Of a stretch of DNA of 64,000 nt, positions 37,501-40,500 are shown piece by piece; position 1 is the stretch's first letter; every line of letters begins with the position of its first letter. The DNA is taken from assembly GCF_003790525.1 (NCBI RefSeq), contig NZ_CP033635.1, one strand, 5' to 3'. This stretch comes from Escherichia coli. GTDB lineage: Bacteria; Pseudomonadota; Gammaproteobacteria; Enterobacterales; Enterobacteriaceae. The position numbers are program-made.

Positions 37501-40500
37501 GGTTAACGGTGGAATAATCACCCGCAATGCCTGGGGAATAATGACCTGGCGTAGCGTGACCGGATTGGGTAATCCCAGTGACCGAGCTGCTTCATGTTGA
37601 CCATAAGGCACTGCCTGGATCCCTGCGCGGATAATTTCGGCGATAAATGCAGAAGTATAAACCGAAAGCGCCAGCGTTAAGGCTGCCAGTTCAGGAATTA
37701 AAACCATCCCGCCGCGGAAATTAAAGCCTCGAAGGGCTGGGACATCCCAGTGTAGTGCTGCGCCAAAAAGCCATTGCGCCAGTAAAGGCAAACCAATGAT
37801 CAACACTGCGGCGATCGGCCAGGTGCGGCGCAGTTGTCCGGTTTTTATCTGGTATGTTTTATTAAAGCGGAATAGCCCAACAGAAAGGACTATAGCCATA
37901 ACAACAGCCAGGATAAACGCAATAAATCCGTCTCCCAGCTGCGGCGACGGAATATAAAGCCCACGATTGCTCAAAAAGGCCAGATCAAACGCACTCACTG
38001 CCTGGCGTGGTCCGGGCAAATTGCGCAGCACGGCAAAGTACCAGAAGAAGATTTGCAGCAGCGGCGGAATATTACGGAAGATCTCAATATAAATTGTGGA
38101 AAGCTTTCGTAGCAGCCAGTTATCCGAAAGTCGCGCCAGACCGATAAAGAAGCCCAGAACAGAAGCGAATACAATACACAATGCAGAAACCAGTAGCGTA
38201 TTGAGTAAGCCAACAATGAAAACGCGTCCGTAGGTATCACCCTGCTGGTAATCGATCAAATGCTGGACAATACCGAAGCCAGCGCCGCGATCCAGAAAGG
38301 CAAAACCTGAAGTAATGCCACGATTACTGAGATTCGTCACAGTGTTGTGAAATAGCCAACCAACAATGCCAACAACAGCAACAACGGCAAGGATCTGGAA
38401 TAACCAGGCGCGAACCGTAGGGTTGGCAAAGGAGAGTGAGCCTTTAACGGTTGAGCGGCGATGAGACATAGAAACCTCGGAAAGCATAACGCTGAAGAGA
38501 GCGCCGCCGTAGCGACGCTCGTTACCTCACACCGACTTAACGCACGGGCGGCGCGTACTGAATTCCGCCGTTATTCCAGAGATTATTTTGCCCACGTTTA
38601 ATTTTCAGCGGGCTTTCTGAACCTACGTTACGCTCAAAAATTTCCGAGTAGTTACCCACCTGTTTGATGATGTTGTAAGCCCATTTATTATCCAGCTTCA
38701 GATCCTTGCCGTAATCGCCTTCTTTACCCAGCAGATGTGCCATATCAGGCGTTGCCGGATTAGCCGCTTTTTCATCGACGTTCTGGGAATTGATGCCCAT
38801 CTCTTCAGCATTCAGCATGGCGAAAAGCGTCCAGCGTACAATCGAGAACCATTCATCATCGCCACGGCGAACTACCGGCCCAAGCGGTTCTTTGGAGATA
38901 ACTTCCGGTAAGACAATCCATTCAGCCGGGTTGCTTAATTTGATGCGCAGGGCATACAGTTGTGATTGATCCGAGGCCAGCGTATCGCAGCGACCAGATT
39001 CCAGTGCCTTCGCTGATTCGTCAGAGCGATCGAAAGTCACTGGTGTGTACTTCATATTGTTTGCCTTAAAGTAATCGGCAACGTTGAGTTCGGTATCAGT
39101 ACCCGCCTGAATACAGACGGTAGCGCCATCCAGTTCTTTCGCGCTTTTTAGTCCCGCTTTATCGTGAGTCAGGAAGCCAATGCCGTCGTAATAAGTGACG
39201 CCGGTAAATGCCATTCCCATCCCGGCATCGCGAGATGAAGTCCAGGTCGTATTACGGGAGAGCAAATCCACCTCCCCTGACTGTAAAGCGGTGAAGCGTT
39301 CTTTTGCAGTGAGCGGGGTATATTTCACTTTCGTGTCGTCACCAAATACAGCAGCGGCAACACCACGACAAATATCAACATCAATACCTGAAAATTTACC
39401 GTCAGCATCGGCATAAGAGAACCCAGGTAATCCATCACTGATCCCGCATTGCACAAAACCTTTTTTCTGTACGGCATCAAGCGTCGCGCCAGCATGCGCC
39501 TGATTTGCAACGGCAAGCAGCACGCTGGCGGCAGCCAGTGTGGCTATCATCATCTTTTTCATAATGCTTCCTGTGAGGCGAAAATTATCGTTATAGGACA
39601 TTTGGGAAACGTCTTTTACCTGTCTGTGGCCATCCTCTTATAAGCAAAAGTAGTGCCAGTTTTTGCGCACGATTTCGCGTCGCAATAAGCTGAGTGTAGA
39701 CAGGAAATAATAAAAACAGCGCCCCGCAATGGTGCGAAAATGAAACATGCGCCACATTTTGGCGCAAAATATTTACGCGTTTTTTACTAAGCAGAATAAT
39801 GATTGTTAGCGTGAGTATAATTCTGGTGGGAAGTGTGAAAATTAAATTGATGCGTTATTTCGAAAGCAGCGAAATAACGCGATATAACATGCTAAATCAG
39901 CAGGGAATTAGCCAGCAGAATATAGCAATATTTTATCTTATGGTGAGATACTGTATCGTTAAACAGAGCGCGGTACTCCGCGCTCTGTTCAGTTATTTCG
40001 ACAGAGCGATGATCCCCATCGTCAGGCCAGCAACAGCTGCTGCCCCGCCAGCAATAGCCCCAGCCGTTTCCCAGTTATCCTGAGTCGTGCCTTTCATACA
40101 GGTATTGGTGTGAACCAGTCGCCCCTGATCATCATAAACCGGAACGCAGGGCGAATCGTGAGCACAGCCCGCCAGCAATGCGGTGAGCAATGCCACAGGA
40201 ATTAATCTTTTCATGGTGTTACCTCAGTAATAAACGCTAACGCTTAATAAGTTAACTCTCTTATTAACGAGCTGAATGCCATTTTATCACCGGAGGTTAT
40301 AAATCTTGCGGAATGAATAATGACAAATTATGTGAATTGTAAAAATAGTGAAGGGAGCGGGAACTATAGAAAGTTTTTAAAGAGTGAGAAGAAGAATATC
40401 TTATTAATTTTTATGGGTTTCACTGAAAATAATAAAGGCACCCGAAAGTGCCTTTATGTTTCTGATTTATCCTTTAAAGCAACGGCGGATCACCACAAAG

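What the first reader, a model, noticed from the sequence alone, without database searches (positions are those of the whole stretch)
39640..39770. Sigma-54-type promoter with an upstream dyad in front of an intact yhdWXYZ transporter operon
Upstream of yhdW the minus strand reads cTGGCACtacttTTGCTta, a close match to the sigma-54 -24/-12 consensus (TGGCAC-N5-TTGCW) with correct GG-to-GC spacing, about 80 nt before the ATG. About 100 bp further upstream lies a perfect dyad TGCGCCA-N5-TGGCGCA, flanked by related GGTGCG/TGCGCC half-sites, in the position expected for an enhancer-binding protein; the spacing is 2 bp longer than the canonical NtrC site (TGCACC-N5-GGTGCA). This fits the reported Ntr control of yhdWXYZ. 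yhdW here is full length with an intact signal peptide, whereas I recall the K-12 copy being annotated as a pseudogene (unverified).
Basis: partly seen in the sequence, partly recalled or inferred. Interest (0 to 1): 0.3.

Follow-up and report, generated by a model that had tools for sequence, protein, structure and literature searches.

The report
Known nitrogen-regulated yhdW promoter, confirmed
This is the already documented sigma-54 promoter of the E. coli yhdWXYZ amino-acid transporter operon, with two conserved upstream sites of the kind bound by the nitrogen regulator NtrC; it is real and well conserved but ordinary.

Summary
cTGGCACtacttTTGCT lies at 39643-39659 (minus strand), 82 nt before the true yhdW ATG (39562). 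The perfect dyad TGCGCCA-N5-TGGCGCA lies at 39748-39766. The window is E. coli chromosome (acrEF-yhdV-yhdWXYZ-rrnD).

The same 17-mer is a published sigma-54 ChIP-seq and gSELEX site in K-12. yhdWXYZ is a published NtrC ChIP-seq target and a listed member of the NtrC regulon. A leave-one-out sigma-54 matrix scores the site 18.2 bits, the best in the window and 4th of 42 known sites. The -24/-12 elements are kept in 79/79 Enterobacteriaceae orthologues and in 7/7 more distant Enterobacterales.

The dyad is one of two conserved NtrC-like elements 30 bp apart, centred at about -126 and -96. The second is cGCACCA..GGGCGCt at 39718-39736. The perfect 19-bp symmetry was seen only in some Escherichia sequences. 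The invariant GC cores sit at the canonical 17-bp NtrC spacing, and distant relatives carry canonical NtrC boxes at the same place. So the "2 bp too long" spacing may only reflect a GGCGC run, and the register remains unresolved.

yhdW is intact here. K-12 has a 1-bp deletion in codon 23.

Verdict: already known, interpretation supported, low interest.

The parts
39643..39659 (-). Sigma-54 promoter yhdWp. The 17-mer is CTGGCACTACTTTTGCT, with -24 GG at 39657/39656 and -12 GC at 39645/39644.
   Evidence: Exact consensus match. Leave-one-out matrix score 18.2 bits, top of the window. Identical to the K-12 sigma-54 ChIP-seq site OS34. TGGCA and TTTGCT are invariant in 80/80 aligned orthologues while the spacer varies.
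39632..39632 (-). Inferred transcription start, 12 nt downstream of the -12 C. It gives a 70-nt leader.
   Evidence: Inferred. The same rule reproduces the known -140/-108 positions of the glnAp2 NtrC sites. It also reproduces the 70-nt promoter-to-gene distance given by Bonocora et al..
39748..39766 (-). The embedded canonical-register 17-mer TGCGCCAAAATGTGGCG is at 39750-39766, centred at about -126.
   Evidence: Exact. Matches the NtrC consensus 12/14 with a 5-nt spacer and 10/14 with the canonical 3-nt spacer. NtrC half-site matrix: rank 1 in the window in the 19-bp register, rank 5 in the 17-bp register. Conserved core TTTTGCnC-N5-TGTGGC.
39718..39736 (-). Upstream element 2: CGCACCA-TTGCG-GGGCGCT. 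The canonical 17-mer CGCACCATTGCGGGGCG is at 39720-39736, centred at about -96. It lies 30 bp downstream of element 1.
   Evidence: 10/14 in either register. Matrix rank 2 (17-bp register) and rank 3 (19-bp register) in the window. GCACC is conserved in 73-80 of 80 and the GC at 39722/39721 in 79-80 of 80.
39692..39704 (-). Conserved 13-mer CCTGTCTACACTC between the enhancer and the promoter, at about -72 to -60. Its function is unknown.
   Evidence: Each position is conserved in 70-77 of 80 orthologues. The block is absent only in the Cedecea-like clade. It resembles an extended -10 element; that comparison is from my own knowledge and is untested.
39661..39686 (-). Inverted repeat ATTGCG-N13-CGCAAA abutting the -24 element.
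   Evidence: The TTGC and GCAA arms are conserved, while the spacer length varies from about 13 to 25 nt between genera. Function unknown.
39563..39631 (-). yhdW 5' leader. It contains a conserved 5' block (GGCCACAGACAGGTAAAAG), a stem-loop GACGTTT-CCC-AAATGTC at 39597-39613, and the Shine-Dalgarno sequence AGGAAG.
   Evidence: Conservation profile. A hairpin is predicted in nearly all orthologues with different stem sequences; 45 of 69 unique segments have z < -1.5. RNAalifold on the MAFFT alignment did not recover it.
38537..39562 (-). yhdW, intact: a 341-aa periplasmic amino-acid-binding protein with a signal peptide.
   Evidence: Translation. PF00497, and 100% identical to a cluster of 5359 member sequences. 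K-12 has a 1-bp deletion at CDS position 68.
35409..38487 (-). yhdX, yhdY and yhdZ (two permeases and an ATPase). These are the ORFs 37288-38487, 36175-37281 and 35409-36167.
   Evidence: ORF list. Collinear with the K-12 annotation.
39962..39989 (-). 12-bp GC-rich hairpin just after the yhdV stop codon. It is the likely yhdV terminator and marks the upstream boundary of the yhdW regulatory region.
   Evidence: The sequence upstream of about 39830 is not conserved between genera.

Best explanation
The region is yhdWp, the sigma-54-dependent, NtrC-activated promoter of the yhdWXYZ polar amino-acid ABC transporter operon.

**Proposed mechanism**
1. RNA polymerase with sigma-54 binds the -24/-12 element (39643-39659) as a closed complex.
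2. Under nitrogen limitation, phosphorylated NtrC assembles on two NtrC-like elements 30 bp (about three helical turns) apart, centred near -126 and -96 (39748-39766 and 39718-39736).
3. NtrC contacts the closed complex by DNA looping and uses ATP hydrolysis to open the promoter.
4. Transcription starts near 39632 and gives a 70-nt structured leader ahead of an intact yhdW.

**Shown versus inferred**
- Shown, in published work on the identical K-12 sequence: sigma-54 binding in vivo and in vitro, NtrC occupancy of the promoter region in nitrogen-starved cells, and Ntr-regulon membership.
- Shown here: motif quality, and conservation of the promoter and both upstream elements across Enterobacterales.
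- Inferred: that these two elements are the NtrC sites, the exact start site, and the looping mechanism (taken by analogy with glnAp2).

The sites are weak and degenerate.
For: **Sigma-54 promoter**
- Exact consensus with correct spacing.
- Leave-one-out matrix score of 18.2 bits: top of the window and 4th of 42 ChIP-defined sites.
- Identical 17-mer bound by sigma-54 in K-12 by ChIP-seq (PMC4591121) and by RpoN-holoenzyme gSELEX (PMC8743547).
- Present 91-115 nt from the ATG in 79/79 Enterobacteriaceae loci, with GG/GC invariant and the spacer variable.
- Also present in 7/7 more distant Enterobacterales.

**NtrC as the activator**
- ChIP-seq peak of 16-fold at yhdWXYZ in nitrogen-starved cells, with the operon listed as a known NtrC-regulon member (PMC4066584).

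**The two upstream elements**
- Each matches TGCACCA-N3-TGGTGCA at 10/14. Centres are at -126 and -96, using the same rule that recovers glnAp2's -140/-108.
- They are comparable to the best matches at the rutA, glnK, astC and ddpX promoters.
- With an NtrC half-site matrix built from 10 K-12 sites, not including yhdW, they rank 2nd and 5th (17-bp register) or 1st and 3rd (19-bp register) among about 64,000 positions.
- The half-site variant TGGCGCA occurs in the best match at the astC promoter.
- Both elements are strongly conserved in 80 orthologues.
- Distant relatives have canonical boxes at the equivalent place: Biostraticola 12/14 at -139; Dickeya two 11/14 boxes at -161 and -131, 30 bp apart; Serratia 11/14; Pantoea 10/14.

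**Other**
- The K-12 upstream sequence is identical across the promoter and both elements.
Against: - No base-pair-resolution NtrC footprint for yhdW was found in the held literature.
- The ChIP-seq peak calls of Brown et al. sit on the sigma-54 promoter itself. This holds for every target I checked, including glnA, so they cannot map the enhancer.
- yhdV is mentioned only in the RpoN tables of the gSELEX paper, so the yhdV-yhdX spacer appears to be absent from the 93 targets of the NtrC-alone screen.
- Both sites are only 10/14 in the canonical register. In each, the right half deviates from the consensus at the positions reported as most conserved (TnnTGC).
- yhdWp-gfp was among the weakest of 12 sigma-54 promoters tested (PMC7045595).
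- yhdW-lux fusions are active in LB (bioRxiv 10.64898/2026.05.04.722672), and Lrp is reported as a direct activator (bioRxiv 10.1101/276808). NtrC is therefore not the only input.
Confidence: 0.85

Rival explanations
1. The dyad, and the second element, are RNA hairpins. They would act as intrinsic terminators or insulators that stop read-through from yhdV, rather than as protein-binding sites.
For: The terminator scan flags both on the minus strand: TGCGCCAAAATGTGGCGCA followed by TGTTTCATTT, and TTTCGCACCATTGCGGGG followed by CGCTGTTTTT. In the window the dyad folds at -11.6 kcal/mol. Several changes between species are transitions that would keep G.U pairs.
Against: The stem is not maintained across species. 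Pair 4 is a T.C mismatch in 58/80 orthologues and pair 3 is broken in 33/80. No pair shows a compensatory change on both sides, and the mean folding energy over orthologues is only -5.1 kcal/mol. The conserved positions (TTTTGCnC...TGTGGC) extend beyond the stem and are asymmetric with respect to it. yhdV already has a 12-bp GC-rich hairpin at 39962-39989. The T tracts are interrupted.
Confidence: 0.04
2. The conserved elements at 39718-39766 are bound by a regulator other than NtrC, for example Lrp or an uncharacterised factor that recognises a 7-5-7 dyad. NtrC would then act from a different or weaker site, or only indirectly.
For: The best dyad reading has a 5-nt spacer, which no other NtrC-dependent K-12 promoter shows independently. 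The region appears to be absent from the NtrC-alone gSELEX list. Lrp is reported to bind and activate yhdW. Pectobacterium also has the N5 form, CGCACCA-AAAAA-GGGCGCA.
Against: The half-sites are NtrC-type: TGCACCA is perfect in site 2 of many genera, and TGGCGCA is also the right half of the best match at astC. Distant orthologues carry canonical NtrC boxes at the same place. No other E. coli enhancer-binding protein I know of has a similar site (my own knowledge, plus the list in PMC4987338). NtrC occupies the region in vivo.
Confidence: 0.08
3. The sigma-54 site is mainly a poised or weak binding site. Most yhdW transcription would come from a sigma-70 or sigma-S promoter whose -10 is the conserved TGTCTACACT block (39692-39701). 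The NtrC-like site 2 would then lie over its -35 region and modulate it, as NtrC does at glnAp1.
For: The 13-mer containing TCTACACT is conserved in 70-77 of 80 orthologues. It matches the sigma-S/sigma-70 extended -10 pattern KCTAYRCT at 8/8 (my own knowledge of that consensus). yhdW-lux is active in LB. yhdWp was weak as a sigma-54 promoter.
Against: The consensus promoter scan did not call this site because no acceptable -35 is present. Thirteen contiguous conserved bases is more than a -10 element needs. No published start site or RpoS dependence for yhdW was found. It does not conflict with the sigma-54/NtrC promoter; at most it would add a second promoter.
Confidence: 0.1

Closest known systems
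E. coli K-12 yhdWp (sigma-54 promoter of yhdWXYZ, listed in RegulonDB/EcoCyc)
   Same: The -24/-12 17-mer, both upstream elements and the leader are identical in sequence. The window differs by one base just upstream of the 17-mer (A here, G in K-12) and by a few leader substitutions. The gene order is the same.
   Different: In this strain yhdW is intact, whereas K-12 has a 1-bp deletion in codon 23. Here the promoter therefore drives a complete binding-protein-dependent transporter.
glnAp2 (the archetypal NtrC/sigma-54 promoter)
   Same: A sigma-54 -24/-12 element with two NtrC-type sites about three helical turns apart, roughly 100-140 bp upstream: -140/-108 at glnAp2 and -126/-96 here.
   Different: The glnAp2 sites match the consensus at 13/14 and 12/14; here they match at 10/14 in the canonical register. 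NtrC ChIP enrichment is 71-fold at glnA and 16-fold at yhdW. The yhdW sites can also be read with a 5-nt spacer.
Weaker Ntr promoters (rutAp, astCp2, glnKp, ddpXp)
   Same: Their best NtrC matches are also 10-11/14. The best matches at astC and rutA have right halves TGGCGCA and TCGCGCA, which share the GCGCA core of the yhdW half-sites.
   Different: The spacing between the two best-matching sites is 20-21 bp at rutA, astC and glnK, against 30 bp here.
Rhizobium leguminosarum aapJQMP general amino-acid permease
   Same: A homologous transporter that is also induced by nitrogen limitation, as cited in bioRxiv 10.64898/2026.05.04.722672.
   Different: I did not examine its promoter. In a Pseudomonas orthologue (73% identity) my pattern search found no sigma-54 motif upstream.

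Membership tests
Sigma-54 (-24/-12) promoter | GG and GC doublets exactly 10 bp apart within TGGCAC-N5-TTGCW | tested here: met
   Exact match at 39643-39658. Leave-one-out matrix score 18.2 bits, 4th of 42 known sites.
Sigma-54 (-24/-12) promoter | Bound by sigma-54 RNA polymerase | not testable with these tools
   Published for the identical K-12 17-mer: ChIP-seq site OS34, 29-fold above threshold, and an RpoN-holoenzyme gSELEX peak at 3417032.
Sigma-54 (-24/-12) promoter | Correct orientation and distance to a downstream gene, and conserved in orthologues | tested here: met
   Located 82 nt upstream of the yhdW ATG. Present in 79/79 Enterobacteriaceae and 7/7 other Enterobacterales orthologues.
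Sigma-54 (-24/-12) promoter | rpoN-dependent transcription start about 12 nt downstream of the GC | not testable with these tools
   No start-site mapping was found in the held literature. The start at 39632 is inferred.
NtrC (GlnG) upstream activating sites | 17-bp dyad TGCACCA-N3-TGGTGCA, with GCAnnA and TnnTGC the most conserved positions | tested here: inconclusive
   Two sites match at 10/14 in the canonical register, or at 12/14 and 10/14 with a 5-nt spacer. The GC cores at canonical spacing are near-invariant (75-80 of 80), while the outer GC dinucleotides are kept in only 47 of 80 (site 1) and 51-65 of 80 (site 2). The cross-species matrix favours the 19-bp register for site 1 (9.2 against 5.8 bits) and the 17-bp register for site 2 (11.6 against 10.3 bits).
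NtrC (GlnG) upstream activating sites | Two or more sites, an integral number of helical turns apart, about 80-150 bp upstream of the start | tested here: met
   Centres at -126 and -96, 30 bp apart. The spacing is constant in all orthologues where both anchors were found.
NtrC (GlnG) upstream activating sites | NtrC occupancy in vivo under nitrogen starvation, and NtrC-dependent expression | not testable with these tools
   Published: a 16-fold ChIP-seq peak, and listed as a known regulon member from expression analysis. The resolution is too coarse to assign the binding site.
NtrC (GlnG) upstream activating sites | Binding by purified NtrC in vitro | not testable with these tools
   yhdV appears only in the RpoN tables of the gSELEX paper, so the region seems to be missing from the published NtrC-alone gSELEX targets. 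No footprint or gel-shift was found.
Rho-independent terminator (rival reading of the dyad) | A stable GC-rich hairpin followed by a U tract, with the stem maintained in orthologues | tested here: not met
   The hairpin is stable only in Escherichia (-11.6 kcal/mol, against a mean of -5.1 over orthologues). Pair 4 is mismatched in 58/80, and there are no compensatory changes on both sides.

The most novel reading that the evidence does not exclude
The conserved enhancer elements of yhdWp really are read with a 7-5-7 (19-bp) geometry. This form is seen in most Enterobacteriaceae and in Pectobacterium. If so, NtrC would tolerate, or a second binding mode would use, half-sites 2 bp further apart than the canonical box.

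In addition, the unexplained conserved 13-mer CCTGTCTACACTC and the inverted repeat abutting -24 would be sites for a further, unknown input. Candidates are a second promoter or a repressor acting between the enhancer and the promoter.
Probability: 0.2. Interest if true: 0.35.

Novelty: already known. Interest (0 to 1): 0.14.

Why it matters
It matters little beyond confirmation. The promoter, its sigma factor and its Ntr control are already in the databases and in genome-wide binding studies.

There are four modest additions:
1. A concrete, conserved candidate for the two NtrC sites (about -126 and -96). I found no experimental mapping of them.
2. Evidence that the striking perfect dyad was seen only in some Escherichia sequences, as an embellishment of a conserved but degenerate NtrC-type element.
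3. Confirmation that this strain, like most E. coli genomes, has an intact binding protein. A 2026 preprint reports that the system behaves differently in K-12, which lacks the binding protein, and in Citrobacter rodentium, which has the complete system.
4. Several conserved but unexplained blocks in the promoter and leader that could guide mutagenesis.

Tried and rejected
- **Consensus search alone.** It is not significant in 64 kb (3.2 hits expected with <=1 mismatch). I replaced it with a leave-one-out matrix and conservation analysis.
- **Perfect dyad as evidence in itself.** Rejected: the window holds 10 such 7-N5-7 repeats.
- **Terminator reading of the dyad.** Rejected because the stem is not conserved.
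- **Rfam scan of 39450-40100.** No match at E <= 1.
- **RNAalifold on the MAFFT alignment of the leader.** It found nothing useful because indels misalign the hairpin. Per-sequence folding was used instead.
- **Pairing between CCTGTCT (39698-39704) and AGACAGG (39619-39625).** No compensatory covariation, so not pursued.
- **IHF, CRP, PhoB, GlrR, TyrR, NarL and CpxR consensus comparisons for the conserved 13-mer.** Done by eye from my own knowledge of those consensus sequences. None was convincing.
- **Papers not held.** Reitzer & Schneider 2001 and Zimmer et al. 2000 could not be read. The NtrC site table of Shimada et al. 2021 is not in the held supplement.
- **Using the Brown et al. ChIP-seq coordinates to locate the enhancer.** Rejected because their peak calls lie on the sigma-54 promoter for all the targets I checked.
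- **Resolving the 17-bp versus 19-bp register.** Conservation and matrix scores give conflicting answers for site 1 and site 2.
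Full report
**Where we are.** The window is E. coli chromosome. An 851-bp query around the finding matches 5401 of 5426 complete E. coli genomes, mostly at 95-99% identity and 100% in strain M172-1. On the minus strand the order is acrE-acrF-yhdV-yhdW-yhdX-yhdY-yhdZ followed by the rrnD operon, as in K-12.

**Checking the observation.** The minus strand reads ...caaaaaCTGGCACTACTTTTGCTtataagagg....
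- TGGCAC-N5-TTGCT occupies 39643-39658, with GG at 39657/56 and GC at 39645/44.
- This is the only match in the window even with one mismatch allowed. The pattern alone is not significant, because 3.2 such hits are expected.
- The true yhdW start is the ATG at 39562 (MKKMMIATLAAASVLLAVANQAHA/GA...), 82 nt below the -12 C.
- The longer ORF from 39601 begins at an ATG that K-12 lacks; K-12 has ACG there.
- The dyad TGCGCCA-AAATG-TGGCGCA is exact at 39748-39766.
- Perfect 7-N5-7 inverted repeats are not rare. The window has ten, against 4.5 in shuffles. Symmetry alone therefore proves nothing.

**Sigma-54 promoter.** I built a weight matrix from the 41 other intergenic sense sigma-54 ChIP-seq sites of Bonocora et al. 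2015 (PMC4591121).
- The site scores 18.2 bits, the best of about 128,000 positions in the window.
- It ranks fourth among the 42 known sites when each is scored leave-one-out.
- Shuffled windows reach a mean maximum of 14.3 and a highest value of 19.0.
- The identical 17-mer CTGGCACTACTTTTGCT is site OS34 of that paper: 29-fold above threshold, PSSM 12.5, assigned to yhdW, distance 70.
- Shimada et al. 2021 (PMC8743547) found an RpoN-holoenzyme gSELEX peak in the yhdV-yhdX spacer.
- RegulonDB lists yhdW among its sigma-54 promoters (PMC3118216).
- A yhdWp-gfp fusion has been used as a sigma-54 promoter, and was among the weakest tested (PMC7045595).

**Conservation of the promoter.** I collected 80 orthologous loci from one genome per species: Escherichia, Citrobacter, Enterobacter, Kosakonia, Trabulsiella, Cedecea, Atlantibacter and others.
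- All 79 loci with enough upstream sequence have TGGCAY-N5-TTGC, 91-115 nt from the ATG.
- TGGCA and TTTGCT are invariant, while the intervening spacer varies. That is the pattern expected of a constrained -24/-12 promoter.
- Seven more distant Enterobacterales keep it as well: Yersinia, Dickeya, Pectobacterium, Pantoea, a Serratia species, Biostraticola, and a record labelled Salmonella.
- My pattern search found no such motif upstream of a Pseudomonas orthologue.

**NtrC.** Brown et al. 2014 (PMC4066584) report a 16-fold NtrC ChIP-seq peak at yhdWXYZ in nitrogen-starved cells. They list the operon as a known NtrC-regulon member from earlier expression analysis.
- Their peak intervals coincide with the sigma-54 promoter itself for glnK, gltI, glnH, rutA, glnA and yhdW. 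At glnA this is 100-200 bp from the well-known NtrC sites.
- These data therefore place NtrC at the promoter region but cannot map the enhancer.
- In the gSELEX paper, yhdV is mentioned only in the RpoN tables. The region therefore appears to be absent from the 93 NtrC-alone targets. Weak sites would account for that.

**What the dyad is.** Anchoring the 80 upstream regions on the promoter reveals two conserved elements 30 bp apart.
- Element 1 has the near-invariant pattern TTTTGCnC-N5-TGTGGC..A.GTT (39769-39744).
- Element 2 has TTTyGCACCA-N3-CrGGGC (39739-39721).

I fetched twelve NtrC-dependent K-12 promoters and placed the start 12 nt below the -12 C.
- This recovered the textbook glnAp2 sites at exactly -140 (13/14) and -108 (12/14).
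- The same procedure gives two 10/14 matches for yhdW, at -126 and -96. These resemble the best matches at rutA, glnK, astC and ddpX.
- A half-site matrix built from ten of those sites, excluding yhdW, ranks the two yhdW elements 2nd and 5th in the whole window in the canonical register. With a 5-nt spacer they rank 1st and 3rd.
- The best match at astC has TGGCGCA as its right half, the same half-site as in the yhdW dyad.

**The spacing question.** Both TGTGGCG (3-nt spacer) and TGGCGCA (5-nt spacer) can be taken as the half-site, and element 2 behaves the same way. No other NtrC promoter examined shows an independent 5-nt-spacer site.

Evidence for the canonical register:
- The GC dinucleotides at canonical positions 2-3 and 15-16 (39765/64 with 39752/51, and 39735/34 with 39722/21) are conserved in 75-80 of 80 sequences. 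The outer GC pairs (39750/49 and 39720/19) are kept in 47 and 51-65 of 80.
- In the Cedecea-like clade, element 2 is TGCACTATTTCGGCGCA, which matches 11/14 only in the canonical register.
- Distant relatives carry canonical boxes at the equivalent position: Biostraticola TGCACTAAAATGGTGCT, 12/14 at -139; Dickeya, two 11/14 boxes at -161 and -131; Serratia 11/14; Pantoea 10/14.

Evidence for the 19-bp register:
- The cross-species matrix means favour it for element 1 (9.2 against 5.8 bits).
- Pectobacterium has CGCACCA-AAAAA-GGGCGCA.

I regard the register as unresolved. The comparative data do make NtrC the cognate activator. They also show that the perfect symmetry is not what is conserved. 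It is complete in only 6 of the 80 aligned sequences. It already has G.T pairs in E. whittamii and in one E. coli, and most genera have TGCTCY as the left half.

**Rival reading: terminator.** The scan tool flags both elements as terminator-like on the minus strand, and the E. coli dyad folds at -11.6 kcal/mol. Across orthologues the stem is not maintained:
- pair 4 is T.C in 58 of 80;
- pair 3 is broken in 33 of 80;
- no pair shows a compensatory change on both sides;
- the mean folding energy is -5.1 kcal/mol.

yhdV also has its own 12-bp hairpin at 39962-39989. I reject this reading.

**Other conserved features of the region.**
- A 13-mer CCTGTCTACACTC at 39692-39704 is conserved in 70-77 of 80 orthologues. 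It resembles an extended -10 element, but the consensus scan called no promoter there because no acceptable -35 is present. No RpoS link to yhdW was found.
- An inverted repeat ATTGCG-N13-CGCAAA abuts the -24 element. Its spacer length varies between genera.
- The first 20 nt of the inferred transcript are conserved.
- A leader stem-loop (39597-39613) has stems that differ between genera in a compensatory way.
- Rfam has no match in the region.
- Lrp is reported as a direct activator of yhdW, and yhdW-lux fusions are active and lomefloxacin-inducible in LB. Inputs other than NtrC therefore exist.

**yhdW status.** The gene is intact here: 341 aa, PF00497, identical to a cluster of 5359 member sequences. 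K-12 b3268 is annotated as a pseudogene. The lesion is the loss of one A at CDS position 68, in codon 23.

**Verdict.** The feature is the known sigma-54/NtrC promoter yhdWp. What this analysis adds is a conserved two-site enhancer model and a caution about the apparent non-canonical spacing. Interest is low.

Noticed in passing
window 40467-43564 (minus strand), lesion near 41896: acrF carries a 7-bp deletion relative to K-12. It is split into two ORFs (41855-43564 and 40467-41852), so the AcrF efflux permease is probably a pseudogene in this strain. The closest genome, M172-1, annotates acrF as frameshifted.
   Followed up: partly
L094 (NZ_CP058714.1, strain M172-1) 2057-2823; equivalent to window 39695-39704: The closest complete genome is 100% identical over the 851-bp query apart from the insertion. 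It has an IS1 element inserted, with a duplication of about 9-10 bp (CCTGTCTAC), exactly in the conserved 13-mer between the NtrC-like sites and the sigma-54 promoter. This moves the enhancer about 770 bp away. The window itself has no insertion.
   Followed up: partly
window 39692-39704 (minus strand): CCTGTCTACACTC is conserved in 70-77 of 80 orthologous promoters and is lost only in the Cedecea-like clade. It resembles an extended -10 element (TGnCTAYRCT), and its function is unknown. The reverse complement of CCTGTCT recurs as AGACAGG at 39619-39625 in the conserved leader, without detectable covariation.
   Followed up: partly
window 39661-39686 (minus strand): An inverted repeat ATTGCG-N13-CGCAAA lies directly upstream of the -24 element. 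The arms are conserved, but the spacer varies from about 13 to 25 nt between genera. Unexplained.
   Followed up: no
window 39597-39613 (minus strand): A leader stem-loop GACGTTT-CCC-AAATGTC is predicted in nearly all orthologues, with different, mutually compensating stem sequences. In this strain a C-to-T change makes a G.U pair and creates the spurious in-frame ATG at 39601 that the ORF finder picks up.
   Followed up: partly
window 39803-39841 (minus strand): A moderately conserved block (ATATTCACGCCnGAAA in most genera; TATACTCACGCTAACAA here) overlaps a sigma-70-like match, TTTTCA-16-TATACT. It lies about 175 bp upstream of the sigma-54 start. It could be an upstream promoter reading through the NtrC sites.
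   Followed up: no
window 6715-6731 (+), 28868-28884 (-), 21419-21435 (-): These are the next-best sigma-54 matrix hits in the window: GTGGCGTGACCTTTGCT at 15.1 bits, CTGGCGTATCTCCTGCA at 14.1 bits and CTGGCGGAAAAGTTGCA at 13.5 bits. They are within the range reached by shuffled sequence, and I did not check them against the published intragenic sigma-54 sites.
   Followed up: no
window 56900-56916 (+): TGCGCTACCCTGGCGCA is the best canonical-register NtrC matrix hit in the window, at 17.8 bits. By synteny with K-12 it lies inside csrD. The top sigma-54 matrix hits listed do not include one near it, so it is probably a chance match.
   Followed up: no
literature (PMC4066584 Table 1 compared with PMC4591121 Table 1): The published NtrC ChIP-seq peak intervals coincide with the sigma-54 promoter motif rather than with the known upstream NtrC sites. 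At glnA the peak is 100-200 bp from the -140/-108 sites. This suggests limited resolution, or crosslinking through the DNA loop.
   Followed up: partly
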